The notes under the pieces are model-generated. The model saw nothing but the letters and a program-made list of their open reading frames with translations, ran no database searches and was not told the origin of the DNA. Source: Rhina ancylostomus (taxonomy: Eukaryota). Taken from it: DNA of 64,000 bases. The DNA is taken from assembly GCA_030265395.1 (NCBI GenBank), contig JARFYF010000036.1:18470943-18534942 (forward strand), in the 5' to 3' direction. How positions within the stretch are numbered: position 1 is the first letter of the stretch; each line of letters opens with the position of its first letter. This document shows positions 12,177 to 63,691 of this stretch, piece by piece. A program made the translations under genes and the position numbers.

Positions 12177-12905
12177 TAGCTGTCATTGTTACCAGCTAAT
12201 CTGCCTCATTACTTCTGCAGCATTTCCTATTTGATGCCTTTTCTTGTCTGTTTTGTTTTAAGATACTTCTGTTTTCCTTTTGGTGTTATCCCACAACTTC
12301 CTTGTTCACTTATTCTTGAGTTTTTAAAAGGAAAATACTGCTCATCCTCGCCTACAACAAGTTCAGCTCCATATATAAAGGGTTCTAAGATGTGTAGTGT
12401 TTAACACATCAAAAATAAAGCAAACAATGTGATATTGTATTTTGTCTGTATTTTCCAAAGCCAAGGAAGTTGGAACAGTAAATAATCCTTCAGCCAGTGG
12501 AAGTTAGTGAGGTTCTGTGTATTTTGCCTATTTTACATTTGAAAAATCATCCCCAGACATCTTCATTTTTCCTACAGAATAATATTTTGACATAAAANNN
12601 NNNNNNNNNNNNNNNNNNNNNNNNNNNNNNNNNNNNNNNNNNNNNNNNNNNNNNNNNNNNNNNNNNNNNNNNNNNNNNNNNNNNNNNNNNNNNNNNNNNN
12701 NNNNNNNNNNNNNNNNNNNNNNNNNNNNNNNNNNNNNNNNNNNNNNNNNNNNNNNNNNNNNNNNNNNNNNNNNNNNNNNNNNNNNNNNNNNNNNNNNNNN
12801 NNNNNNNNNNNNNNNNNNNNNNNNNNNNNNNNNNNNNNNNNNNNNNNNNNNNNNNNNNNNNNNNNNNNNNNNNNNNNNNNNNNNNNNNNNNNNNNNNNNN
12901 NNNNA

Positions 12906-13158
12906 GGAACTCAGCAGGCTAGGCAGCATCCATGGAGAAAAGCAGGAAGTCAATGTTTCGTGTCAGGACCCTTCCTCAGGACTGACGATAGGAAAAGGGG
13001 AAGCCCAATATATAGGAGGGAAAAGCAGAGCAGTAATAGGTGATTTGTCATAGTTGACCATCTGCTTTTCTCCACGGATGCTGCCTGACCTGCTGAGTTC
13101 CTTCAACATCATAGTGTTTTTCATCTAGGTTCCAGCATTTGCAGTCCTTTGTTTCTCT
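12906..13158. mobile_element. Penelope-derived inverted-pLTR element, young subfamily
   Basis: Left arm ggaactcagcaggctaggcagcatccatggagaaaagcagg against right arm ctgcttttctccacggatgctgcctgacctgctgagttcc. Minus-strand hammerhead motif gtc-CTGAGGA-agggtcctgacac-GAAA-ca-TT-gac at about 12949-12982. Left end lies in a gap. Confidence 0.85.
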
Positions 13159-13199
13159 GCTAATTCAAATCATGGCATATGCCATCCAAAAATGTCTGA

Positions 13200-14710
13200 G
13201 AGCTCTGGGTCCAGTAAAGTGAAAAAGTAAAGTGACAGCATCCCAGCATCCAGACCTGTGCTCCAGAACTAGGCAAACTTCTTGTCAAGCTGTTCCTATA
13301 CAATTTCAACGCTGACAACGTGGACATTGCCAAGATATGTCCTGTTCACAAAAAGAAGAACAAATCTAAAAGACCAATGAACACCCAAACGCTCAATGAC
13401 CAGCGAAGTGTTGTTGAAGAGCTATCAAGCAGCACTTATCAACCAATAACCTGCATATGATGGCCTATTTGAGATTTGACAGGAACTTCCAGCTGCCTAC
13501 CCAATCACTGCCATAGTCCAAACTTAGACCAATTCCACAGGTGAGGTGAAATTGGTTGGCTTTGACATCAAGGCAACACTTGACCAGGTGTTCAATCAAG
13601 TATTTGGGTCAAAATGATATCAATGAGTATTACTGGAAAATACNNNNNNNNNNNNNNNNNNNNNNNNNNNNNNNNNNNNNNNNNNNNNNNNNNNNNNNNN
13701 NNNNNNNNNNNNNNNNNNNNNNNNNNNNNNNTCTGATCTCCAAGGCAAGATTCCTTCCAGTTACTGCCTGTGTTTGTCCTGAGGAAGTACCCTGACTCCA
13801 GTCTTGTACCAGTGTGCTGCGTTTGGGTTCTCTGTGAGTTTGCTCCAGATCAGCATTGTGACAGAAGCAGTCCATGCCTGTATGCAACAAGACCAAGTTA
13901 ACATTTAGACATGGGCTGAAATGTGGCAAGGAACATTCACACCACAAAAGATCCACGCAGTGATCATTCCAAAGCAACACAAATTCTAACCACTAACTCT
14001 GGACATCCAATGGCAAGAACATCCCCAAGTCACCATTGACCAGAAATGCGACTTGACCACCTGTATATAATACTCTGCAGATCAGAGACCAGGAGCCCTG
14101 CTGCTAGTGACTCATCTTCTGACACCTCAAAGCCTTTCCATCATCTACAAGATCACAAAAAATTAGGAATAGATCCTCAAGCCTGCTCTGCCATTCAATA
14201 TGATCATGGCTGATCTTTCCCAGGATGCAACTCTTCTCTGTGCCACTTACTCATAGCCCTGAAGTCCCTGTTCTTTCAATAACACATCAGGAGCATGACT
14301 GAATATACTCTCCATTTGTCTGGATGAGTGCAGCTCCAACAACAGTCAAGAAGATTGACACAATTCAGGGCAAAGCTACAGTATGTGCTGACTACAAAAT
14401 GAACTGCAGTTACTCAATGAGGCTGCTCCCAAATTCACAACCTCCACCACCAAGTAGGAATAGGGCAGCAGGTGCATGGAATATCACCATCTATCTGCAG
14501 GTTCCCCTCCAAGCTATCTGCCACCCTGACTTGGAAATCTATTTCTGTTCCTTCATCATCACTGTGCTTAAATGCTGAAACTCCCTTCCCCAACAATAAA
14601 TGAGATGTACTTACACCAGAGAGAATGCAGCAGTTCAAAGTGGCACACCATCACCTACTCAGGAGTAATTAGGGTTGAGCAATAAATACCCCCAAAAATT
14701 GAATAAATAA
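13200..14710 (+). mobile_element. CR1/L2-group LINE, decayed RT to 3' end, interrupted by a gap, an LTR and a CR1 tail (about 14150-14280, minus strand)
   Basis: TCAPEL...LVKLF, IAKICPVHKK, ALDIKA..D-like and EAVHACMQQD...WA.MWQ..F motifs across frameshifts; 3' end ggagtaattagggttgagcaataaatac...gaataaataaaa. Confidence 0.75.
13732..13863 (+). mobile_element. 3' part of the 385-bp LTR family (5' part in gap)
   Basis: gatctccaaggcaagattccttccagttactgcc...gtgtgctgcgtttgggttctctgtgag...cattgtgaca matches about 37000-37121 and ends TGACA. Confidence 0.85.
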
Positions 14711-15317: not shown

Positions 15318-16512
15318 ACAATAACTGCAGAAAATACTCACCACATCAAGCTGAATCTATAGGAAGAAAAACAGAGTCAATGTTTCAGGTCGGAGACCCT
15401 TCATCAAAACTGAAGAGGAGACAAAAGAAGTGCAGGGAGGGCATGGAAGGGTGATGTCTCTGATAGGATAACACCAGGATGACCATAGAGATAAGCTGTA
15501 AGCATTGTTATCTGGTCAATGAGTGAATGGGAGCAGTTAGAAGGTGAGAATGTAGACAATAGAATGTGGGAGGAATGAAAGGCAAACCAGGAGGACAAGC
15601 CCAGCAGACACATCTTCCCATCTCCTCCCCTTTCTGCGTTTCACAGGGATAATTCTCCTCACGACTCCCTGGTCTACGCTTCCATTCGCACTAACCACCC
15701 CCCTTCTTATAGTACTTTCCCTTGTAACCACAACTCTTGTCCTTTCACTTCTTCCCTTCCCACCATCCAGAGACCCAAAAACAGTCTTTCTAAGTGTAGC
15801 AGCAATCCACTTGCACTTTTTCCTATCTCGTGTACTACATTCGGTGTTCAGAATATGGTCTCCTCTACCCTGGAGAAACCAAGCACAGATGGGTAATTAC
15901 TTTGCAGAACACCTGCATTCAGTCCGCAGGCTGATGCTGAGCTTCCCGTTCCCATCCCACTCCCACTCTGACCTCTCTTCCTGTATGGTCACAGTGAGAC
16001 CCAATACAAGCTTGAGGAATAGCACCTCATTTTCTGTCTGAGGTCATTGCAGCTTTGTGAACTCAACGCTGAAATCGACAACTTTAGGTAACTTGATGTC
16101 TTTGTCTCTATCAGCCATCCATCTGTAATATTAGCTCAGCACTTTTTCCTTCCTTTTTTTCCTCTGGGAATTGATGACATATCCAGCCTGACCTGCCAGG
16201 CATGTCTTCATGCTCTGCATTCCACAATTCCCACATTCTTTTGATGAGGTTCTTTTGACTATGTTCTCTCTCTTTCCAACTGCTCCCATTCACTCATTGA
16301 CCAGACAATCATGTATACATGGTTTCACACTATCAGGGACATCCATCTCCCCCACAGCTTCACAGGTTTCTTTTGCCTCCTTTTCAGTTCTGACAGAGGG
16401 TCTCTGGCCTGAAAGGTTGACTCTATTTTTCTTCCCACAGACGTGACCTGACCAACTGAGTATTCCCAGTACTTTCTCTTTTTTGTTTCAGAACAGTTAT
16501 GTGTTCTGCAGT
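15318..16512 (+). mobile_element. 5'-truncated Penelope-like element with an inverted 5' copy of its 3' end
   Basis: Internal GIY-YIG remnant (ggagaaaccaagcacagatgggtaattactttgcagaacacctgcattcagtc = GETKHRWVITLQN / FAEHLHSV; cttgaggaatagcacctcattttc = LEE*HLIF). Arms about 15320-15570 and 16250-16510 are inverted copies (tctggtcaatgagtgaatgggagcagttag vs ccaactgctcccattcactcattgaccaga). Confidence 0.85.
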
Positions 16513-21750: not shown

Positions 21751-23074
21751 TGGGTCTAGTCACACTATTGACTAACAAGAACACTTTTTAGGTGGGAGAG
21801 AAAGCAAATGTCTAATGGTACTTGCAGATCATGATCCATATTTTTCTGCATGTTATTTTTCTTCTAAATTTGCACTGGTTTTTTCATGCACACTTGAAAG
21901 TGAAAATGCAAAAGCCTAATGATGCTGAAAATGCATTCTGAGATTCTGAAGTAAAATGTAATTGCTTCTAATCTGTAATTGCTTTCTCCACTATTTTAGC
22001 AGAAAGAGTGAACTATTGTTTAAAAAAGGTCGATAGTTCTTTATGAATAAACAAATGCATTAAACATGTTGTAGTTTAAAATTTCCTCTAAATTGCAAAC
22101 AAACCTTTCATTGTATGAAGATACTTCTCTTAAGATACTTTGCATAAATGGACCAATCAACTATAAGAAATTTACCCGAACAAATGTGCATCTAATTAAA
22201 TGCAGCACAAGTGAAGCATGACAAAAAATGCATCCTCATGTATATCCACATATATGGGTTTATCCTTTTACATGCATATAGCAAGTTGTCTTGTTGAGCC
22301 TTAATTAAGTGTGAAAGTAAAACAATGGCCTAATTGCAAGAGGCTGAATGTTTCTTGCAGGGTGTCAAGAAGAAGATGTAACAGAAAAAGTGAACGAAAT
22401 AGAAATCCCATCTGTAGCACAGTGAAAAATGGGCTCAAAGAGAGGGTCAACTCACAGAGTTAAGAAATGCAAAGCAGCAGGAATGAAGAAATAATGATGC
22501 AAACAATTGGGAAAATACATTTGGAGAGCAATGATATTTATAATCTGCAAATCAGGAACAATGCCAAAAAAATCATTCCATCTTGATCGCACTCAGTACA
22601 CTGTTGAGGAGAATTAGAGGTTCCAAAATGTATTTAAGTAATGAAATTCATTGGAATTACTATTAATTGGAATGAATTTCAAATGCAGTTTACAACACAC
22701 TGATACTACTATGTCGTGAGTTTATTGCTTCCAACCAGGGATTCATTTTAAAGCAACACTGACTGGCGGATGGCTCACATATGTGTACTAATTATATCTA
22801 TTAAATCAGATGATGATTTCTTCATATTTAGATCCTCAAATCCCTCACCCTGGTTCTGACTGGAAATAATATTCAACTTGTGGAAAATGTACAGAAGCCA
22901 ACTGTTTTATACTCTACCATTGTACACCCCATCTTATTTTCCTATCCACTCACAAAGTTAGTCTGTTATGTTAACAATAGAACTTACCTGGCAAAAGGTT
23001 AATAATTATTGACCATTATGAATTACATGATTAAATTTGTATTTAGGAACAGACATAAACTTGAAAATGAACAT

Positions 23075-23680
23075 AACTGCATTGAGTACAAGAGCTGGGT
23101 AATCATGTTACAGCTGTACAAGACATTGGTGAGACTGCACCTGGAATATTGTCTGCAGCTTTGGTTACCATATTATAGGAAGGATGTGATTAAACTAGAG
23201 AGGATACAGAAAGGTTTCACAAGGATGTTGCTGGGACTGGAGGCTTGAGTTATAAGGACAGACCGGATAGGCTGTGACTGTTTTCCCTAGAGTGAAGGAA
23301 GCTGAAGGGTGACATTATAGGGGTTTATAAAATCTTAAGGGGCATAGATAAGGTGGATGGTCATGGGCTTTTTCCCAGGGCAGGTGAATCTGAAACTTGA
23401 GGTCATAGGTTTAAAGTGAGAGGGGAAAGATTTAAAGGGGAGCTGAGGGGCAAGGTTTTCACACAGAGGGTGGTGTGTGTATGGAACGAGCTGCAGAGGA
23501 AATGGTAGAGATGGGCACAATTACATTCAAAAGATATTTGGACAGGTACACGGATAGGAAAGGTTTAGAGGGACATGAAACAAATGCAGGCAAATGGGAC
23601 TAGCTCAGGAAGGCATCTTGGTCAGTATGGACAATTTGGGCTGAAGGGCCTGTTTCCATGTTGTATAATTTAATAACTAC
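23075..23680 (+). mobile_element. CR1 LINE 3' about 600 bp
   Basis: IEYKSWVIMLQLYKTLVRLHLEYCLQLWLPYYRKDVIKLERIQKGFTRML, through to tail gggctgaagggcctgtttccatgttgtataatt. Confidence 0.93.
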
Positions 23681-24254
23681 AACATTTGGATGACTTGTAA
23701 AGGTTTAAAGCAAAACTGGACTCTATTTGGATGTTAATGCTTCACTGAAGTTTGTATATTTCTACCCAGTAAGAGTTTGCAGAAACTTCTTTAGTGTCAG
23801 AAAATATCTTCCAATATCTTTTGTTTTGTTAGAGTATTTCATTTGATTAGCAATCTGCAGATGTCAAATTAAATGCACAGGAGCTTTAAATGTGGTGTCA
23901 AAAGTGGAAGTACAAATTGTGCTTGCAACACTGCTGTTCATCCATGTTCAAAATAATAAGAGGTTGTGATAAGGTAAATAAGGAGAAATTATATTTGCTG
24001 ATTGCTGATCCAGAAAGGAGAGGACATAAAACTCAGATTATAACAGATGAACAAAAGGAGATATGAAGAGACATTGATTCGGCAGAGAAGTTGTACATGG
24101 AATCATAACCAAATGGAAGATGGGTTGTTTTATGAGGACTGGAACATTCTACCATATTATACAGAATGCAGTAGTCAGTGATTGAAATGCTGCATTGTAT
24201 AATTTTGTGTACTTCAATTAGAACAAAAAGCACAATAGGTGTTCCTTTCTGGGT

Positions 24255-24522
24255 GTCAAAGTAGTTTAAAGCACAATGTTCTCACCTTTGAGATAACAGA
24301 TTATGAGTTAAGGTTCCACTGCAGAGACAAAATCTGTGCCGATCAATATTTAACCTTCAACCAACAGTACAAATAATGGTTGCTTGGTTATTTAATTAAT
24401 TATTATTTGTACCTATTATTGACTGCTGTGATACTCTGTTAAGCAATGGCTACATAGCAAAAATTACTTAATTAACTATACAGCATTTTGTATATCCTGG
24501 GGTTGTAAAAGAAGCTATATTT
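24255..24522 (+). mobile_element. Deu-SINE (SacSINE1-like), internally deleted
   Basis: Head ctcacctttgagataacagattatgagttaaggttccactgcagagac; core caatatttaaccttcaaccaaca; L2-type tail cattttgtatatcctggggttgtaaaagaagctatat. Confidence 0.6.
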
Positions 24523-25467
24523 TCTTCCATTTTTAATTAGATTGTAATTGGTCATTTTCACAGGGTAGGTCATTTAGCGAGTGAACTAGGTTTTTACTAA
24601 ATGCCTTTTTAAAAATATAATATATTAGAGGTGACTGAAGAGCCACCAGTTTATAAATTGTGTACATGTATGTGTGAGCACACGTGCACGTGATGGCTAT
24701 GGGGGAGCAAGAAGGGCAGAGGGTCANNNNNNNNNNNNNNNNNNNNNNNNNNNNNNNNNNNNNNNNNNNNNNNNNNNNNNNNNNNNNNNNNNNNNNNNNN
24801 NNNNNNNNNNNNNNNNNNNNNNNNNNAGAGGGTCAATGTGTAGGGACTCCAAGTACCCCATTAACACCCAAGGCTTACCTGAGTCAACATTTAGCCAGGT
24901 CTGTAAGTAGGGAAGGACTCTACCTGGCAAAAAGGATCAACATGCTTCCTTAATATGTGAAATAGGATCCTGCAATGTACCGATGCAACAGGGCAGAATC
25001 TGCACCTTAAACACTCTTGCTACTTCCATCAAAACCTCCAAACACATGCAGATTTTTAAAAAATCTATATCCACCTGAATCAGTTGCTGTTTATACTCCT
25101 AGGTCCTATACCCAACAGTGCCCAGAGCTCAATCTCAACAAAGGTACAAGAAGACATCCTTAAAATTCTTTGAACCTCCTCCCTCCAATGCTCCAGCATC
25201 TTTTGAATTCTTTTTGATTTATGCTGACCTGAAGGAAAACTAGGATCTCGTATAGTTTGCAAAGAGGCACCATGATCTTGCAAATACTTTGCTAATCAAA
25301 TTTCCATTTCCCTCCATCGATCATGCCTGACCTGCTGAGTTCATCCAGCATTTTTTGTTTGTTGCAAGGGAATATATGTGAAAGGATGAGTTGAAATAGC
25401 TTAATGATGGCAATTACTCACATTAAGTTTCCAGGTCTGAGTAATGAATTATTAATTGTAAGGTGGA

Positions 25468-25776
25468 TGTCATGGTTCTGAGTTCTGGCCCTCAGTTTGG
25501 CTCCATTAATGCCTTTTGTCTAGCACATGGATTCCATGCTGGACTGATTAGATAACAATACACACCTGAGCCTCATCAGGGGCCTTGCATAAGAACCTGT
25601 GTTTCTCTGGCATCAGTTGCCAGAGTATTGGTCTACCTTTAGGTATACTTTGGTTCCATTTGCTTAGAGTGGTGTACTCTAGTGCAGTCCTGTGTTCTGT
25701 ATTCCTTTGTGAAGATCCAGTTCGTGTTGGGATTCCTCTTCTGATCTCGGAGGCAAGATTCCTTCCAGTTACTGCC
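25468..25776 (+). mobile_element. 385-bp-family LTR, forward copy (3' end in gap)
   Basis: Starts TGTCATGGTTCTGAG and is colinear with 36737-37037; preceded by GTGGA (25463-25467). Confidence 0.9.
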
Positions 25777-25876
25777 NNNNNNNNNNNNNNNNNNNNNNNN
25801 NNNNNNNNNNNNNNNNNNNNNNNNNNNNNNNNNNNNNNNNNNNNNNNNNNNNNNNNNNNNNNNNNNNNNNNNNNNN

Positions 25877-26072
25877 CTACTCTAAGCAACTGGAACCAAA
25901 GTATACCTAAAGGTAAACTAATACTCTGGCAACTAGTGCCAGAGAAACACAGGTTCTTATGCTAGGCCCCTAATGGGGCTCAGGTGTGTAATCAGTCCAG
26001 CATGGAATCCATGTGCTGGACAACAAGACATTATTGGAGCCAAATTGAGGACCAGAACTCAGAACCATGACA
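25877..26072 (-). mobile_element. 385-bp-family LTR, inverted copy (5' about 200 bp visible)
   Basis: Ends ...ctcagaaccatgaca (reverse complement of the LTR start); followed by GTGGA (26073-26077). Confidence 0.9.
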
Positions 26073-26149
26073 GTGGAGGGGCCTGTCTGACAGGCTAGAC
26101 TTATGTATGTAGGATAAGAAAAACTGAGACAACGTGATATAAAAGGAGA

Positions 26150-27190
26150 AAATGGGAAATGCCAGAAAAGTTAAGAGGAGCAGGCAGCATCTTTGGAAAG
26201 CAAAATAATTAATTAGTCAGAAAGAGAAAAATAAGTTAGTCTGAGTATCAGCAAACTCTGGGTGAAACCAAGAGAATCTCTGTGATAGAGTGAACACACA
26301 TGGCAGATGGGATAAGGAACAACAGTTGTGTAACTTGTCACTAATGTGGGTCTGGCATACCAGGACGTGTTCAGTAAGCCAGACTATACACAGATATGAA
26401 AAAAAAATGGAGAGGCAGAAAGTGATATTTAAAGTTAGGGAATTTGATATTAAGTTCAGGAGGCTACAACATATCCGTATCAAAAATGAGCTGTTGTTCT
26501 TCAAGCTTGCATCAGGTCTCATTGTAACAGTGTAGGAGGCCACAGATGGACCAGTCGGAGTGGGAGTGGGATGGTGAATTACAATATCAGGAAGCTCAGG
26601 GTCATTCCTGCAGATTGAATGCAGATGCTCCACAATAGGCTCGCCCAATCTGTGTTTGATTTCTAGAGCACAGGCGAGGCCACGTTGTGACCTGCTTAGC
26701 ATATTCCATTTGCTGTTTTCACGACTTGCTGACTCAGTTCTTCTTATCCTACACTTAAAGCTAGCCAATCCAGCAAGCCCCATGACTTTACCATTAACAA
26801 TACATTACACAAACCTGGAAACTTAAGGTGCCAATAACTGTCCCCATTTAAGCCATTTCAACTCACCCTATCCCAGACGGAGTGTTTTCTACATATCTCT
26901 CTCTCATCTTCTNNNNNNNNNNNNNNNNNNNNNNNNNNNNNNNNNNNNNNNNNNNNNNNNNNNNNNNNNNNNNNNNNNNNNNNNNNNNNNNNNNNNNNNN
27001 NNNNNNNNNNNNCTCCCAGTGAAAACTAACTTGCATATCTCTCTTTCCCAATTCAGACAAATGGTTGCAGACTTGAAATGTAGACAGTTTCTTTTTCCAT
27101 GGATGTTGTCTGATCTGTGGATTTTTTCCAGCATTTTCCTTCTCTGTTTCAGATTTCCAGCACCTGAAGTTTTTTTTCAGATTTTCAGAC
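26150..27190 (-). mobile_element. Penelope-like element (GIY-YIG remnant on minus strand) with pLTR-like ends in inverted orientation
   Basis: ORF 26217-26783(-) contains EIKHRLGEPIVEHLHSICRNDPELP; an alternate frame gives CGLLHCYNE...CKLEEQQLIF. pLTR-like sequence at about 26155-26215 and, inverted, at 27060-27180. Confidence 0.75.
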
Positions 27191-29619
27191 TTGCCTGTTG
27201 GGTTGTTAGAAGAGCTGGAAACTCAACAACTGCTGCAGAAATCATTATCAGAGTTAATTTAATTTACGGGTACCTCTACAATTCCACTAATGTACTTTCT
27301 TTCCTTTGCATTGCAGAAACTGTAGAAATTTGAGCTACAATTAGACTAGGCTGGATTGACCTCTCTTTTATTAATGGTGAGGAAGCTTGGAAATGAGAGC
27401 CCCAATCTTCAGGATCTCTTGAATGAAAAAATATTTCATATGAAATCACATTGATACTCCCAATTCAAATCAAATGCAAAATATAATGCCAGCACCTGGA
27501 AGGCCGGAGCAGACCCTGGCACAAAACAGCTGGAAAAAACTGATTGTGAACTAAATAAACTCCGCTGCCTTTCCAGGCTGTCAAGAACATCAAATTTCTC
27601 TGAATATCCCTGATACTCAAATGCTATTATAAAGAAAACAAATCAATAAAAGACATTTAAAAAGGTTAAAAATTAAGCAACATTTAATTCACAAAAATAA
27701 TTAATAAGATTTAACATAATTCAGTTAAGTGAAACAATGTAAATTAACAAATGCTTTCCCTCCTTCCATGCAGCCATTCCTTTCTATTGAAATGATAGGG
27801 TCATAACATCCAACATGGTGTATGTTCAACGTGCAGATTCCCCACAGCAACTGCACAATAAATGTCTTCAGTTCTGTTCTGGTTCTGAACGCCATGAGGG
27901 GTTTAACATGGAGTACAGTTGGGGGAATATCTGTCTGTGCAGCCAGTGGTTTCAGGGCTTCCACATTGGGAATCCTGAATGTGATGACACAATTATGGAG
28001 AAATTCTGTGATAGCTGGTATTTCACAGCTAGTTTTGTCAATTCATTAGAGCTTCCTGGTTCCCCCAATGCACCCACCAGTTAATTTCCTGTTGTAATTA
28101 AAAAAAAACTTCAAAATGAGATGCACACTTCTTGTTACCATTAAAATTAATGGGCTACATCTTGCAAGTGTCCATTTGACTAAAAGGGGTGCCAGTTAGT
28201 GTTCAGCCTAAATTTCATCCCTAATTTTCTTTCAATTAAATTGATTTCATTCAAATGAATGTACAAAACTGAGATCTTTCTCGAATTAATTTCCCTATCT
28301 CATGCAGCGTTGCCAACTTTAACTCTATGGTTTTGTCCTGTTTATCCGAGCAGCAAAATATTACTGTGCAAATGTCAGATTTTTAGGGCAGTTCTGTGAA
28401 GTCTCCTGCACTGACCCCATTATGCTATGGATGTGATTTCTCAGTGGTGCCAAACTAAGATATACGAATCCATTACACAGCACAAATGAGACTTCAGTGC
28501 ACTGGAAAAAAAAACAAATGGACCTCAACAGCCTTTTCCACTGATAAATATTTCTCAATACTTAAACTGCCAACAGTATTTCTGTAACTTAAAGTTGAAT
28601 CGCAGACCTTATAAATCTATGGGGTGGAGGGAGGGGAGGGGTAAATTGGTTAGCACTGGAAAAGGGTGCTGGAATCACAATGCACAAGTAAACCACATCC
28701 ATTGGAACTGGAGCTGAATGCACACAATAGATCTGCTGTCATTTTATCATCATAGTTTCAGCAGCCTGCCACTACAAGTTGCCAGGCAGATGCTATGGAT
28801 ATCAACAATGGACGAAAGTGGCGTGGAGGATGAGAGAGGATCACTTCAGTAACACCCTTCCCTCTCTCTTGCATAAGCTGAACTAGCAGCCATAAATTGG
28901 TAAGGATATCATTGGCTGCCGTATCTCACCCAATTCACAAAGGAGAGTGTGCTGGTCAGTATTGGGAGCATCCATCATGAAGTCATTGAAGATTAAAATA
29001 TGATTAATTTGCAGTTGAACATCGCTGCCTCTTTCAGTATTTTGGTAGTTGTTTATCCCATTGGGAGATCATGTGGAAATGAATTAGTTAACACTACAAA
29101 GTATCAAATCAAAGGCCTATCATCCAATTCATGATGCAAAACTGTAAAATCTCACATGTTCAATGTTTTGTTCCATGGCAGTACTAATTCTTCCGTAAGG
29201 ATATCTGTATAAAATCTAAAAATAGAAAAATCCATCACAGACTAATATTTTAATCATTTTGCAAATGGCCAGTGTTCAATGTGCAGTACTAATTTTTAGA
29301 AACTCCAATAGTGAAAACAAATTTAGTTCTGAGTCATGGAAATGACAAATGAACCTCAGTTTAGATAAATGTGGAAGAGTTTCTTGGTGAGAAAAAGAAG
29401 CTAAAAAAGGGAGACAAATAGGTGAGCACTGGAAACAGATGTGGATTGATGGACAATGTCTACTGTATTTTAGGCTGGTGGATAAATGTGTGTATTAGCA
29501 AGGGACTATTATCTAACAGTCACAGTTGCCACTCAGAGGCAATCTTCACCCTTTAATAGTGCAAGATATGGTGCGGGATATTTGTAAAAGCATTTTGGAC
29601 TTTGATATGCAAAGAAATG

Positions 29620-32982: not shown

Positions 32983-33489
32983 NNNNNNNNNNATGAATAA
33001 ACATTTTTTTAATTAACGAAGTAATAGAGAAATTACAAAATCATTTCAAACCAGTGCTATTAGAAGTTGTGGAATATTATAATTTTTGAACCTGTGGAAA
33101 GAGATCTGGAGAGAATATTTATATCTGTACTGGAGGTCTGAAAAATCAGTCCCAGCATTGTAACTTTAGTCTATCTGGTTTGAGTATTAAGAAGGAAACG
33201 TGAGTGTTCTAATGGAAGAGCATATCCAGTCCAAGTTACTCAACACTCAAGATCTAATATTTGAATGGATGTGTAAGACAGCTTTATGTATGGAAATAGG
33301 TCTTCAAAAATGTGAAGGATTGTTTGTATGCCACCAGTGGTGATAAAAAGAAAATCACTGATTTCAGAATTAGACTAAAAATTAATTATCATTGCATCAA
33401 CATGAATATTGACATAGCCGCTGATTTTTCTATCATGGGAAGAGAAACACATAACCAGAAACCCTTTAAAATTAAGAACATTGAGGTCA

Positions 33490-36682: not shown

Positions 36683-36736
36683 AAACATCCCATGAGCTAA
36701 ATAATCTGTGCTCATTTTGATGCTAAATTTATATTG

Positions 36737-37121
36737 TGTCATGGTTCTGAGTACTGGCCCTTGATTTGGCCCCTTAGGTGCCTTGTTGTACAGCACATGG
36801 ATTCCATGTTGGAATGATTGTATAATGACACTCACCTGAGCCCCATCAGGGACCTAACATAAGTACCTGTGTTTCTCTAGCACTAGTTGCCAGAGTATTG
36901 GTCTACCTTTAGCTCCTAACTGCTTAGAGTGGGCTACTCTAGAACAGTCCTGTGTTCTCTATTCCTTTTTGAAGATCCAGTTTGTGCTGGGATTCCTCTT
37001 CAGATCTCTGAGGCAAGATTCCTTCCAGTTGCTGCCTGAGGAAGTATCCTGACTCCAGTCTTATATCAGTGTGCTGTATTTGGGTTCTCTGCGAGCTCGC
37101 TCTTTGCTCAACATTGTGACA
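36737..37121 (+). mobile_element. Complete solo LTR (385 bp) with 5-bp TSD
   Basis: TGTCA...TGACA termini; perfect TSD TATTG at 36732-36736 and 37122-37126; no ORF; homologous copies at 13732, 25468 and 25877. Strand is relative, since transcription direction is not established. Confidence 0.9.
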
Positions 37122-40100
37122 TATTGCATATTTCTAGATTCAGAGTATGACCCCAGCTCAGGCTGAGTGCAATAGTCTAAATCTAATTGGGACTTTATAC
37201 TTTCTTTTCATAGTGGGGAAAATGAGTGCAACACCAATAAAGCCATCCTCCATCCTCCATCCCCCATTTCCCATCATTGAATCATCAAAACTATACTTGC
37301 AGATTGGGATTCTGAATATTGAGATGAAGCTATTTCTTTTGGGTTTTTTTAACAGCAATTGAGAAATTTATGTTTCTTTGTAAACATTATCAATCATTAT
37401 ACATGTAAACTTGATCATATTATTAAGATGTGCTTACTCCTACTACAGATTGACTTTTGCTAGTTTTCAGACCAACAAAGGGAACCTTTAGCTATGATGG
37501 ACCAATGCATTTCAGAAAATGCCAAAACACCCCCCTTTAAGTACTGATCTTGTGGAATAACATTAGCAATGGTTCATAGCCTCTCCAGCCAGGCCATTCA
37601 GGCTGCCTGAGGGAAAAGACATACAATTCAGATGAAATCAAGTTTAAAATGATGAATGCTCCCTGTGTTCTGATCTAGTTCATTAAGAGTACTGCATAAC
37701 CAAGCAGAAATAAAATTAACCAAAGTGAATGCTAACTTATTGCTTTGCCTACAGTTATATTCAATCCCACCATAAGCGGCTCTGTATATTGAATTTCAGC
37801 CATTAGCACATATAATTGGGACTTGGGTTTCAGTTAAATACCCTTTAAACATAAAGGCACTGAAGTTTGTGTTGATATCTTTTGAAGTCAAGCAGTGAGC
37901 TTTGAAAGCAATTTGTTTTCTGTGTTTTGCAAGATGCAATACTATTTCTTTCGAAAGGACGGTTAAATCTCAGATTGCTTCTTTAGGCAGAACATGAATC
38001 CTATATAAAGTCAAACATATCTACTGCCCTCCTCTGCTTACTCCATAGTATTTTAAAATTCTAGATTATTGTTGAATGTTGAGGAAGATGAGAGACACTG
38101 CAAAGACTGTTATCTGAATGGTTTATAAAACTAAGTTGTAGATTTAATGCTGGCATTTTTAATAATGATACAGATTAACCTGTAAAAGACTTCTCCCATT
38201 TCATGCAACAGTAGATCAGATAATTTATAAATTATTTTTGCTCAGAAGGTATTAATCCTTCAGGACATTTGATTTAAAGGCATTTTTTCAAGTATGGTTG
38301 GTTTGTGATATTATGCTGATGAAAATATGACATTTACTCTTGTAAAGAGGCATTCAGTTCCTGAGGCTGAAATGCCTGAAGTCCAGCGGTCCTTTCTGAA
38401 GGATGCAGGGCTCAGACTTCTATCTACCAGCTGGCCTCATCCAGTGGATAGCATTGTTTTAAGATACAGTGTAGATGGTCAACACCTGCAGCATATTCAA
38501 AGAAAAAGTCAAGCAGGGTCTGTAATTGGAAGTAATAGAAAAACAATTTGCCTTTTTTCACAGTCTTTCATGTAGAAATGCTCTAGAAATAGAGAGTTTC
38601 ATAAAGGAATAACCAGAAATAAAGACCTCCAACTTACTTGGATTCAGAACCCACACCTGCTCTCGAAAGGCGTGGGAAATGCTGGGCTGAGCAAAGTTGT
38701 CGAGAATTTCCTCCTCCATCCATGGCTCGAAGCAGCAATGGCATCATGGAGCTGGGATAGATTACTTTTGGAAGGGGTAGCAGAAGGTTGGCTACAGATT
38801 TCAATGCAAACAGATAATCAAGTGTATAGATCTACAGAAAAAATAATTTCTTTGTGGGAGGTTAGATAATCAACAAGTAATGGCATAATTGGCATGATCA
38901 ATTTAAGTATCAAAATAGAGCACAGCAAAGTAGAATTACTTTGAATTTACTTTACAGAATGGAACTATGCATCCTGATGGATTATTCTCGAGTTTTCTAT
39001 AATGGTGCTGGATATTTGGTGTAGTACTTGACCACATCAGGCACATCATGAGCTTCTCTCTAAGCACTTAGTGGACCTCTAAGCCAATACATAGGCCTTG
39101 GACTCAACATCTGAGCATCATGGAGCATCGTTGACTTCAGTCAATTATTCTAATTTTTAAAATATATTTACCATTGACAATTTGACAAGTTAATTTTTAA
39201 TTGCACAGCTAAAAAGTATTTTTATTGATATGCTGATCAAAGAATCATTGTATCAGACAATCTAACCCAGCAAGTGAATTGACCAGTACTTAGATCAGCT
39301 TAAATGAAATGTAATTGTCAAAGCTTGAGATTCTCAATGGCTCACAAACTAAGTGTGCAATAGGCACTGGTCTGCATTGAGAGAGCAGAAAGATAAAGGG
39401 CCTGGAGCGTCAGATACAGAGTAATGCAATAACACCCCATTGGAAGCAACCAATTATATTTTTGATTATTTAATTCACTTTCATATGCAATTAGTTAAAC
39501 TATTGAAGCTGTTTCAGGTTATTATTCTAAAGCTTTTATGAGCTGTAATATGTTTGCTTAATTATAATCAATTAAAATGAGCAAAAATTATTGTGATCTT
39601 TTTGCCAGGAAAATCTATCAGTAAAATGATTTGATAAACTAAGATCATGTTACATTCAAAATTGTGGATACAAAAATAATCAATATATTGAATTTCTGTT
39701 AAAACCAACTTGCTTCAGGTGAATTTGTGAATTGTGCCCTGGGGATTATTTTAAAATAATAAATATGATTAATTGTACCAAGAATATAACTCCAGGGATA
39801 CATTCATAGTTCAGTAATTAAATAAATGAAATTACACAATTTATTCCTTATTTAATTTTCCCACCAGATAGAAAATATATTATGTGGTTAAATCAAATCT
39901 AATCATATTTAATGCTTATGAGTCATTGTTAGGTGGTGCTGTATTGGATTTACACAGTTTAATGTTCAGTATTTCTTTTTATCAAGAGGTTTAAGTGCCT
40001 AGAAATTGGAACAAGTTACACCAGGCTTCTGGGCACCACACAGTGCAACTATGATTAATATCGGTGATTTGCCATGTAGATTGTGAAGTCCGTGACTTTC

Positions 40101-53806: not shown

Positions 53807-54401
53807 GGGAAAAAAGGACTGCAGATTCTGGAATCTAGGTGCAAAAACAACAAGATACTGGAGGAACTCAGCAGGCCAGGCAACATCCGTGAAGAAAAGC
53901 AGGCGGTCAACGTTTTGTGTCAGGACTCCTCTTCAGGACTGAAGATAGGAAAAGGGGAAAACCAATATATAGGAGGCAGAAACAGAGCAGGCGCCTCATG
54001 GTGGGAGGGGAGGGGATGTAAAAAAAAAGGCCAGCACCTCATATTCTGAATTGCAACATTAAAGCCTAATCGNNNNNNNNNNNNNNNNNNNNNNNNNNNN
54101 NNNNNNNNNNNNNNNNNNNNNNNNNNNNNNNNNNNNNNNNNNNNNNNNTGGATCTGCTCTCCCCTCCTCTCTCGCACCTACCTATCATTATCTCTTACCT
54201 GCATCTACCTATCCCCATCTTGTGCCCACCCTGCCTCCCCTCCTTTGTCCACCTATCACTTCTCTGTTTCTCCCCCTATCTATTGGGCTTCCTCTTTTCC
54301 TATCTTCAGTCCTGAAGAAGGGTCCTGACCTGAAAAGTTGACCACCTGCTTTTCTCCACGGATGCTGGCTGACCTGCTGAGTTCCTTCAGCAACTTGTTT
54401 T
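53807..54401. mobile_element. Penelope-derived inverted-pLTR element with about 14-bp TSD (gap in centre)
   Basis: Arms 53807-53990 and about 54255-54401 are inverted copies. TSD ttctcctatgacta (53793-53806) / ttctccaatggcta (54402-54415), 2 mismatches. Confidence 0.85.
54309..54342 (+). ncRNA. Minimal type-I hammerhead ribozyme motif in a Penelope pLTR (probably degenerate)
   Basis: gtc-CTGAAGA-agggtcctgacct-GAAA-ag-TT-gac: stem I gtc/gac, core CUGANGA, stem II ggtc/gacc, GAAA. Stem III differs from the aacgtt seen at 53909-53914. Confidence 0.6.
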
Positions 54402-54532
54402 TTCTCCAATGGCTAAATGCTCAGAAATATCAATAGGAAGCAGAACAGGTAACATATAGCAATCATCCAGTGGAGCTTGACATTGAATGGAAACCAAAAC
54501 AAATTCTGATACTGGAAATCTTTAATAAAAAA

Positions 54533-54706
54533 GAGAAAATGCAGGAAACACTCAGCAGGTCGGGCAGTATCTGTGGAAAGAGAAACAGACTTAAATGTTT
54601 CACATATAAGATCTTTTGCCAAAACTGAAACATTAACTCTGTCCCTCTTTCCACAGATGCTGCCTGACCTGCTCAGTGTTTCCAGAATTTCCTGCTTTTA
54701 CTTCAG
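54533..54706. mobile_element. Compact Penelope-derived palindrome
   Basis: ggaaacactcagcaggtcgggcagtatctgtggaaagagaaacagacttaaatgtttca vs tgaaacattaactctgtccctctttccacagatgctgcctgacctgctcagtgtttcc (about 60-bp arms). Confidence 0.85.
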
Positions 54707-55521: not shown

Positions 55522-56367
55522 GATTACATAGAACAGTACAGCACAATACAGGCTCTTTCGCCCACAATGTTGTGCTGACCTTTATACCTCGCCTAAGACT
55601 ACAAACCCTTTCCTCCCACATATCCCTCTATTTTAAATTCCTCCATATGCTTATCTAGCAACCTCTTAAATTTGACCAATGTACCTGCCTGCACCACTGC
55701 CCCAGGCAGTGTATTCCATGCACCAACCACTCTCTGGGTAAAAAAACTTCCCTCTGATATCTCACTTGAACTTCCCACCCATGATTTTAAAGCCATGCCC
55801 TCTTGTATTGATCATTGGTGCCCTGGGAAAAAGGTGCTGGCTGTCTACTCTATCTATTCCTCTTAATATTTTGTATACCTCTATCATACCTCCTCTCATC
55901 CTCCTTCTCTCCAAAGAGGAAAGCCCTAGCTCCCTTAAACTCTCCTCATAATGCATACTCCCTAAACCAGGCAGCATCCTGATAAATCTCCTCTGCGCCC
56001 TTTCCAATGCTTCCACATCCTTCCTATAATGAGGCAACCAGAACTGGACACAGTTCTCTAAGTGTGGTCTAACCAGAGTTTTGTAGAGTTGCATCGTTAC
56101 CTTGCGGCTCTTAAACTCAATCCCACGATTTATGAAAGNNNNNNNNNNNNNNNNNNNNNNNNNNNNNNNNNNNNNNNNNNNNNNNNNNNNNNNNNNNNNN
56201 NNNNNNNNNNNNNNNNNNNNNNNNNNNNNNNNNNNNNNCCCTTCCCCAATTAAATATCTTCCTGTCCTCTTTGCTCCTCTTCTTGCCCATGACAATTCTA
56301 AAGGTTAGGGAGCGGTGGTCACTGTCCCCCAAATGCTCACCCACTGAGAGATCTGTCACCTGACCTG
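55522..56367 (-). mobile_element. Young CR1 LINE spanning the endonuclease C-terminus to the 3' tail, with RT hidden in the gap
   Basis: Right of gap: GQVTDLSVGEHLGDSDHRSLTF (APE SDH motif). Left of gap: FINRGIEFKSRKVTMQLYKTLVRPHLENCVQFWLPHYRKDVEALERAQRRFIRMLPG...FFTQRVVGAWNTLP and tail. Confidence 0.93.
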
Positions 56368-63169: not shown

Positions 63170-63475
63170 AGAAACAAAGGACTGCAGGTGCTGGAATCTA
63201 GATGAAAAACACAATGATGCTGGAGGAACTCAGCAGGCCAGGGAGCACCCATGGAGAAAAGCAGGCGGTCAATGTTTTGGGTCAGGACCCTTCNNNNNNN
63301 NNNNNNNNNNNNNNNNNNNNNNNNNNNNNNNNNNNNNNNNNNNNNNNNNNNNNNNNNNNNNNNNNNNNNNNNNNNNNNNNNNNNNNNNNNNNNCTGGCCC
63401 GAAATGTTGACCACCTGCTTTTCTCCACGGATGCTGCCTGGCCTGCTGAGTTCCTCCAGCATCATCATGTTTGTC
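63170..63475. mobile_element. Penelope-derived inverted-pLTR element with perfect 14-bp TSD, inserted in CR1
   Basis: Arms atgatgctggaggaactcagcaggccagggagcacccatggagaaaagcaggcggtcaa / ttgaccacctgcttttctccacggatgctgcctggcctgctgagttcctccagcatcat. TSD acacaatatttcag at 63156-63169 and 63476-63489. Confidence 0.9.
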
Positions 63476-63691
63476 ACACAATATTTCAGGATTGTTTATT
63501 GTTCAGTGAGATCTTTCTGTCCTTCAGTGATAAAACCAAGCATTGAACTTTTGACATTCACCTGTGGAAGTGGTGGGGAATTTAGGATGCCTTTGACAAC
63601 AGCTGTTCTCCATTGTGGGTTTACTAAATTTGGACTCCCCATGGATTCTAGCACTTCAGCACTGGACCTATATCATTTTAAACCTGGCACC

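What the first reader, a model, noticed from the sequence alone, without database searches (positions are those of the whole stretch)
25463..26077. Inverted LTR pair bounded as one unit by a single 5-bp TSD (LTR turned into a TIR-like element)
Seen: the layout is GTGGA-[TGTCATGGTTCTGAG...forward LTR...gap...reverse LTR...CTCAGAACCATGACA]-GTGGA. The same family occurs as a normal solo LTR with a 5-bp TSD at 36737-37121, so the TSD length fits. The two arms differ by many substitutions and a 10-bp indel (gattagataacaatacacacc vs gattacacacc), so this is not one read set assembled twice. Both arms share aggtatactttggttcca, which the 36737 copy lacks. Established: LTR retroelements integrate with direct LTRs, whereas Ginger DNA transposons use a Gypsy-like integrase with TGT-starting inverted termini and 4-5-bp TSDs. 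Inference, three options: (a) integrase joined two identical LTR ends of an aberrant cDNA; (b) this is a non-autonomous LTR-derived TIR element; (c) a template switch between the LTR's imperfect terminal inverted repeats rewrote the 3' end after insertion.
Basis: partly seen in the sequence, partly recalled or inferred. Interest (0 to 1): 0.7.

Follow-up and report, generated by a model that had tools for sequence, protein, structure and literature searches.

The report
Inverted LTR pair, one insertion site
In a shark or ray genome, two copies of a retrotransposon end-repeat face each other at one genuine insertion site; this is probably a rare integration accident rather than a new kind of mobile element, but its centre is an unsequenced gap.

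Summary
The layout is confirmed. A new in-window test shows it is one insertion. The pair sits in one arm of an older inverted repeat. With the pair removed and one GTGGA kept, the flanks align to the host's other arm with no gap at the junction (72/91 and 60/83 identical). This makes a mis-join, or two LTRs at separate sites, very unlikely.

The arms differ at 13 of 193 sites plus two indels and are closer to each other than to the solo copy. The centre is unknown: another 100-N gap in the window spans about 1.5 kb of missing LINE.

Best reading (0.42): integrase joined two 5' (U3) ends of a tail-to-tail cDNA. Both normal ends of this family read TGTCA inward.

The TSD fails the Ginger1, animal Ginger2 and GingerRoot definitions. 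LTR identity is inferred, since no poly(A) signal or internal region was seen. The structure is real and odd, probably a one-off.

The parts
25463..25467 (+). left target-site duplication, GTGGA
   Evidence: single copy in register with the host's other arm
25468..25776 (+). left arm: first 309 nt of an LTR-like unit, starting TGTCA, runs into the gap
   Evidence: 256 of 299 sites identical to the solo copy; homologous up to the last base
25777..25876 (.). 100-N placeholder gap, true length and content unknown
   Evidence: 8 of 13 gaps in the window are exactly 100 N; another 100-N gap spans about 520 missing LINE codons
25877..26072 (-). right arm: inverted copy of the first ~205 positions of the same unit, ending ...TGACA on the + strand
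   Evidence: 180 of 193 sites identical to the left arm, 2 indels; terminal 15 nt identical to the family's 5' end, not its 3' end
26073..26077 (+). right target-site duplication, GTGGA
25377..25462 (+). host repeat, part left of the insertion
   Evidence: aligns to the reverse complement of 26785-26875
26078..26162 (+). host repeat, part right of the insertion
   Evidence: aligns to the reverse complement of 26699-26781; 0 of 1000 random segments score as high
26699..26875 (-). second arm of the older host inverted repeat, used as the empty-site control
36737..37121 (+). complete single (solo) unit of the same family, TGTCA...TGACA, flanked by TATTG at 36732-36736 and 37122-37126
13732..13863 (+). 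3' end of a further family copy with the normal ...TGTGACA end; its 5' part lies in an 88-N gap; followed by a LINE reverse-transcriptase remnant
   Evidence: weak tblastn match of the right flank, E 1e-4

Best explanation
This is a one-off, old integration accident of a Gypsy-type LTR family. The family's own integrase made one concerted 5-bp staggered insertion using two 5' (U3) ends instead of one U3 and one U5 end. The donor was a tail-to-tail cDNA: a fold-back or mis-transferred plus strand, or two cDNAs paired in one integration complex and later joined at their free ends. Any long palindromic centre was then lost or lies in the gap. The arms started alike and have since drifted about 7% apart. 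The structure is not expected to move again. SHOWN: one site, true TSD, two 5' ends, arms more alike than either is to the solo copy, symmetric end motif. INFERRED: LTR identity, the donor's structure, the single event, loss of the centre, immobility.
For: The empty-site alignment has no gap at the junction; of spacers 0-11 nt only 5 keeps both flanks in register (score 68 vs 60). The TSD length equals that of the solo copy, which points to the same enzyme. All five visible termini read TGTCA inward and fit the Sushi-clade 5' integrase motif TGTYANR, and the inverted 5' end fits the 3' motif CNTNACA (motifs from PMC3601003 Table 3), so a second U3 end should be an acceptable substrate. The right terminus carries no 3'-end-specific base. 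The arms share 20 diagnostic sites of 184 ungapped columns plus a 10-nt segment against the solo; Fisher p 0.004 and 0.018. Aberrant retroviral DNA ends joined to further viral DNA in either orientation are documented (PMC5041404, passages).
Against: No direct precedent for a two-U3 integration with a clean TSD came up in searches or 47. The aberrant HIV integrations usually lack a short clean TSD. The in-vivo rate is my guess. The centre is unseen, so double insertion predicts the same visible sequence. Arm similarity can equally reflect a shared subfamily, and the only test (37 nt shared with the 13.7-kb copy: 2, 3 and 4 mismatches among the three pairs) does not discriminate. No AATAAA or ATTAAA occurs in any of 4 copies (only 2 include the 3' part) and no internal region was found, so even LTR identity is inferred.
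Confidence: 0.42

Rival explanations
1. Double insertion. A second copy inserted in the opposite orientation into one TSD of the first, giving GTGGA-[unit>]-GTGGA-[<unit]-GTGGA, with the middle GTGGA and both 3' ends (about 280 nt if both are complete solos) hidden in the gap.
For: Published precedent: an inverted tandem of two Rover LTR elements with the target motif in the junction (PMC5932611, passages). It needs only normal integrations and explains the 7% difference and the 10-nt indel without further events. A 100-N gap here can hide far more than 280 nt.
Against: It needs an exact second hit on the same 5 bases. The precedents involve elements with strong target preference, whereas GTGGA and TATTG show none (2 TSDs only). 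Both copies must also come from the same subfamily.
Confidence: 0.22
2. Post-insertion template switch or break repair. A normal solo unit was rewritten: a polymerase copied at least 205 nt of the opposite strand back to the 5' end and returned at the shared terminal TGACA, keeping the original junction and TSD.
For: It explains the clean TSD with a normal integration. The two normal ends share 5 perfect and 10 of 15 terminal bases. Switches that create inverted repeats are a known class (PMC5453318, passages). A perfect 7-bp hairpin lies 4 nt outside the right TSD (40 such in 62,691 bases; p about 0.04).
Against: At least 205 nt is long for the local switches described (clusters of a few tens of bases in the passages seen). 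The return must fall within the last 5 nt, since no 3'-specific base survives. The hairpin was noticed after the fact and is weak.
Confidence: 0.15
3. A non-autonomous (or, if the gap hides an integrase, autonomous) TIR element built from two inverted LTRs and moved as DNA by a Ginger-like enzyme.
For: Its shape is that of a TIR element, with TGTNR termini and arms in or above the Ginger TIR range of 40-270 bp. Bao et al. proposed exactly this origin for Ginger1 TIRs (PMC2836005 Discussion). A multi-copy family would be met in a random window far more often than a one-off (inference).
Against: Only one locus is known, and the other two insertions in the window have a normal 3' end. The TSD fails Ginger1, animal Ginger2 and GingerRoot. 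No transposase or integrase family was found in 122 stop-free frames of at least 75 aa (insensitive to decayed genes). No evidence for a resident mobiliser was seen in the listing of one search.
Confidence: 0.09
4. Assembly artefact: a chimera of two haplotypes or paralogues, or a fold-back read error.
For: The centre is a gap in a fragmented short-read-type scaffold (13 gaps in 64 kb). The host is itself a repeat, so collinearity with its second arm does not strictly prove the two contigs come from one copy.
Against: The arms differ by 6.7% (95% CI 3.6-11.2%) plus indels, against shark nucleotide diversity of 0.002 (PMC10587355, passage), so they are neither alleles nor a fold-back copy. The junction bases are continuous with non-LTR flank on both sides. 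A paralogue chimera needs two opposite insertions at the same host base.
Confidence: 0.06

Closest known systems
Inverted tandem of LTR retrotransposons by double insertion (Drosophila Rover; McGurk and Barbash 2018, PMC5932611)
   Same: Two LTR-element copies in opposite orientation at one target site.
   Different: There the target motif is seen in the junction and is a palindromic AT motif. Here the junction is a gap, only LTR sequence is visible, and no target preference is evident.
Solo LTRs of Gypsy-type (Sushi/rGmr1-like) retrotransposons (Benachenhou 2013, PMC3601003)
   Same: TGTYANR end motif, TG...CA termini, 5-bp TSD, about 385-nt unit.
   Different: No AATAAA, normal 3' ends miss CNTNACA by one base, no internal region seen. 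The pair has two 5' ends.
Ginger1, Ginger2/Tdd and GingerRoot DNA transposons (PMC2836005, PMC6839031)
   Same: TGT-starting long inverted termini bounded by a short TSD. The inverted-LTR arrangement is the one Bao et al. hypothesised as Ginger1's origin.
   Different: TSD length and sequence differ, no transposase is seen, only one copy is known, and the arms derive from a family that otherwise has asymmetric ends.
DIRS retrotransposons
   Same: Inverted long terminal repeats (search listing).
   Different: DIRS use a tyrosine recombinase (listing) and, as I recall, make no TSD. Here there is a true 5-bp TSD, TG...CA ends and solo copies.

Membership tests
Gypsy-type (Sushi-clade) LTR, for the repeated unit | 5' integrase motif TGTYANR / TG...CA short inverted repeat | tested here: met
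   3 of 3 5' ends, and the reverse complements of 2 of 2 normal 3' ends (motif)
Gypsy-type (Sushi-clade) LTR, for the repeated unit | 3' integrase motif CNTNACA | tested here: not met
   0 of 2 normal 3' ends (TGTGACA, one mismatch); the inverted 5' end does fit
Gypsy-type (Sushi-clade) LTR, for the repeated unit | AATAAA poly(A) signal near the 3' end | tested here: not met
   0 of 4 copies on either strand, only 2 of which include the 3' part (feature). Not filed as a Sushi member; it works like an LTR.
LTR retrotransposon (general) | short TSD, usually 5 bp | tested here: met
   GTGGA and TATTG; usual length from PMC6839031 passage
LTR retrotransposon (general) | direct LTR pair around gag-pol with PBS and PPT | not testable with these tools
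   No such element in the window; no animal genome collection available
Ginger1 | 4-bp TSD, CCGG or CCGT/ACGG | tested here: not met
   5-bp GTGGA
Ginger1 / Ginger2 | TGTNR termini in inverted orientation | tested here: met
   TGTCA at both ends
Ginger2 (animal) | 4-bp TSD within AT-rich RTATAY target | tested here: not met
   only Dictyostelium TDD-4/5 have 5-bp TSDs
GingerRoot | 6-bp TSD, 100-150-bp TIRs | tested here: not met
   5-bp TSD, arms at least 196 nt
Ginger-like TIR family | integrase-like transposase between the TIRs, or several dispersed copies | not testable with these tools
   centre is a gap; only 64 kb available
Double-insertion inverted tandem | third TSD copy at the junction between the two elements | not testable with these tools
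   junction lies in the 100-N gap; feature
DIRS | tyrosine-recombinase integration without TSD (the no-TSD part is recalled) | tested here: not met
   a true 5-bp duplication is present

The most novel reading that the evidence does not exclude
The pair is one copy of a dispersed elasmobranch family in which two inverted LTR 5' ends act as TIRs and are cut and pasted with 5-bp TSDs, possibly with integrase sequence in the gap. It would be the missing LTR-to-Ginger intermediate that Bao et al. 2010 hypothesised.
Probability: 0.09. Interest if true: 0.85.

Novelty: new variant of a known kind. Interest (0 to 1): 0.4.

Why it matters
How an LTR retrotransposon could become a TIR DNA transposon is described as unclear in PMC2836005, and inverted LTRs are the proposed raw material. 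This locus shows that such a substrate (two integrase-type 5' ends facing outward, bounded by a true TSD) can arise and persist in a vertebrate genome. It also defines a simple genome-wide count that would test the idea. If the count is one, it is a curiosity about integrase end-pairing or double insertion. If it is many, it is a new route between transposon classes.

Tried and rejected
Rejected: two LTRs at separate nearby sites with a chance GTGGA, and a long-range mis-join (empty-site alignment). Rejected: inversion by recombination between two distant opposite LTRs, which would not leave matching outer TSDs (inference). Rejected: simple in-place flip of part of one unit, because the visible arms already total 505 nt against a 385-nt unit. 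Rejected: allelic flip (divergence far above shark diversity). Considered unlikely: retroposition in trans by a LINE or Penelope enzyme, because both ends stop exactly at the TG terminus with the family's TSD length (inference).

The first null gave 2 of 890 segments at or above the observed score (maximum 270). I attribute these to segments overlapping the query itself; with that region excluded the result was 0 of 1000 for each flank.

Led nowhere: Rfam on the whole window, 0 matches. Pfam on 122 stop-free frames, one sub-cutoff chance hit. PDB sequence search with frame 2462-2845, 0 hits. The host repeat's family therefore stays unconfirmed; 'Penelope-like endonuclease remnant' is only my recollection of the peptide's look. 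The 37-nt overlap with the 13.7-kb copy could not date the arms. The pair could not be folded because of the N run. Dating with the epaulette-shark pedigree rate gives 2.5e7-2.5e8 generations, usable only as 'old'. PMC11899658 (passages) deals with direct LTR tandems and gave nothing on opposite orientation. No animal genome collection was available, and the bacterial/archaeal, phage and plasmid collections were not searched as they do not hold this taxon, so copy number and orthologous sites stayed unchecked. No supplements were read; Supplemental Table S2 of PMC5932611 lists further inverted tandems and may bear on the precedent.

Full report
Observation. The described layout is in the sequence at the stated coordinates: GTGGA 25463-25467, a forward arm 25468-25776, 100 N, a reverse arm 25877-26072, and GTGGA 26073-26077. 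The arms match at 180 of 193 sites with two indels (K2P 0.071). Over the shared segment each is further from the solo copy at 36737-37121 (K2P 0.19 and 0.17), which has a TATTG duplication. A fourth copy, 3' end only, lies at 13732-13863. The window holds three family 5' ends and two normal 3' ends (exact matches). Two random 5-mers here match with probability 0.0015.

Context. A LINE frame at 55765-56136 has its best hit in Hypanus sabinus (82% identity; 34 hits among 301 candidates), so the window is from a cartilaginous fish, probably a ray (inference). The scaffold has 13 gaps, 8 of exactly 100 N and 1 of 10 N. This fits a convention in which 100 N marks read-pair-bridged gaps and 10 N marks cycles (PMC5411770, passages), but I cannot show which assembler was used. 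The placeholder says little about length: across the 100-N gap at 56139-56238, residues 242 to 762 of a full-length LINE protein are missing, about 1.56 kb if that LINE was intact. Three of 13 gaps, including this one, lie between inverted arms within 700 nt. That is what real hairpins do to short-read assemblies (inference).

The decisive in-window test. The left flank 25377-25464 matches 26785-26875 in reverse, so the pair sits in one arm of an older inverted repeat whose other arm lacks the insertion. With the pair removed and one GTGGA kept, the flanks align to that arm without a gap at the junction, 72 of 91 identical on the left and 60 of 83 on the right. None of 1000 random window segments reached either flank's score. 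Of spacers 0-11 nt, only 5 kept both flanks in register, although the gain is modest (68 vs 60). So exactly 5 bases were duplicated at one site. A residual caveat is that the host is a repeat (related pieces at 2462-2845 and 15874-16033). Its family is unconfirmed.

What the unit is. All five visible termini read TGTCA inward and fit TGTYANR, the Sushi-clade 5' integrase motif (PMC3601003, passages and section 12). The two normal 3' ends miss that clade's CNTNACA by one base, and no copy has AATAAA or ATTAAA. No internal region is in the window. It behaves like a Gypsy-type solo LTR, but membership is not established. The right terminus of the pair is pure 5'-end sequence, no normal 3' end is found within 22500-29000, and both arms stay homologous up to the gap. 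The arms share 20 sites of 184 ungapped columns and a 10-nt segment against the solo, with 7 and 6 sites private to the right and left arm and 1 site where all three differ. They are significantly closer to each other than to the solo (p 0.004, 0.018). At 6.7% (CI 3.6-11.2%) they are far beyond allelic diversity in a shark (0.002; PMC10587355, passages), so this is not one locus assembled twice, and the structure or its parts are old.

Mechanism. I rank first a single concerted integration that used two 5' ends of a tail-to-tail donor (0.42). The TSD length matches the family's, the end motif is symmetric, and no second coincidence is needed. The step from symmetric ends to in-vivo U3-U3 pairing is inference. 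The aberrant HIV integrations I read about (PMC5041404, passages) show viral DNA joined in either orientation but usually without a clean short TSD. Double insertion into one target (0.22) predicts identical visible sequence plus a third GTGGA in the gap. It has a precedent in two inverted Rover elements (PMC5932611, passages), but needs an exact second hit by a family with no visible target preference. A post-insertion template switch (0.15) keeps the original junction through the shared terminal TGACA, but must copy at least 205 nt and return within the last 5 nt; the local switches in PMC5453318 (passages) are short. A mobile TIR family (0.09) has shape on its side and nothing else. Artefact is 0.06, and 0.06 is left for routes not considered. 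These weights are judgements, not computed values. Together the three one-off routes carry about 0.8.

Comparison with known systems. The pair looks like a Ginger element (TGT-starting inverted termini) but fails the TSD definitions of Ginger1 (4 bp, CCGG/CCGT), animal Ginger2 (4 bp, RTATAY) and GingerRoot (6 bp) (PMC2836005, passages; PMC6839031, passages). Bao et al. suggested that Ginger1 TIRs arose from two opposite LTRs flanking an integrase (Discussion section), so the idea is in print as a hypothesis. I found no description of an LTR-only inverted pair under one TSD in searches (0 papers; 3 papers, all DIRS; 3; 15 of 23 listed; 15 of 18 listed) or 48 (7 of 9 listed). From these six searches I saw listings only, apart from PMC5041404, PMC2836005 and PMC6839031, read as cited above. 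The library lacks most subscription papers and repeat databases were not available.

Verdict. This is a real, single-site inverted LTR-like pair: a new variant of a known kind (inverted LTR tandem or aberrant insertion), most likely unique and immobile. Interest is 0.4. It would rise sharply if a genome-wide count found sister loci.

Noticed in passing
window 25377-26875: The host is an older ~890-nt element (after removing the pair) with ~175-nt inverted arms at 72-79% identity and a decayed coding-like centre related to 2462-2845 and 15874-16033. It looks Penelope-like from memory; not confirmed by Pfam or PDB.
   Followed up: partly
window 26081-26095: Perfect 7-bp hairpin with a 1-nt loop, 4 nt outside the right TSD, in a cluster of mismatches against the host's other arm; 40 such hairpins in the window, p about 0.04.
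   Followed up: partly
window 26781-26788 (minus strand): Opposite the GTGGA target, the host's other arm reads GTCATGG, which is also bases 2-8 of the LTR-like 5' end. Probably chance; unexplained.
   Followed up: no
window 56139-56238: A 100-N gap splits a LINE ORF2 remnant with about 520 codons missing across it: either a kilobase-scale hidden stretch or an internal deletion.
   Followed up: yes
window 12905-13159, 53840-54408, 54528-54699, 63203-63476, 15497-16319, 734-931: Many other inverted-arm repeats, several of one abundant family; two have assembly gaps between their arms.
   Followed up: no
window 24727-24826 and 32983-32992: The flanks of these gaps overlap by 8-9 nt, suggesting zero or negative true gap length.
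   Followed up: no
protein P0007: A reverse transcriptase labelled Klebsiella pneumoniae is 73% identical to the window's LINE frame; likely contamination of a bacterial record with vertebrate repeat DNA.
   Followed up: no
window 13732-13863: Further family copy with a normal 3' end and an 11-nt insertion relative to the solo, at the same position where the left arm's contig ends.
   Followed up: partly
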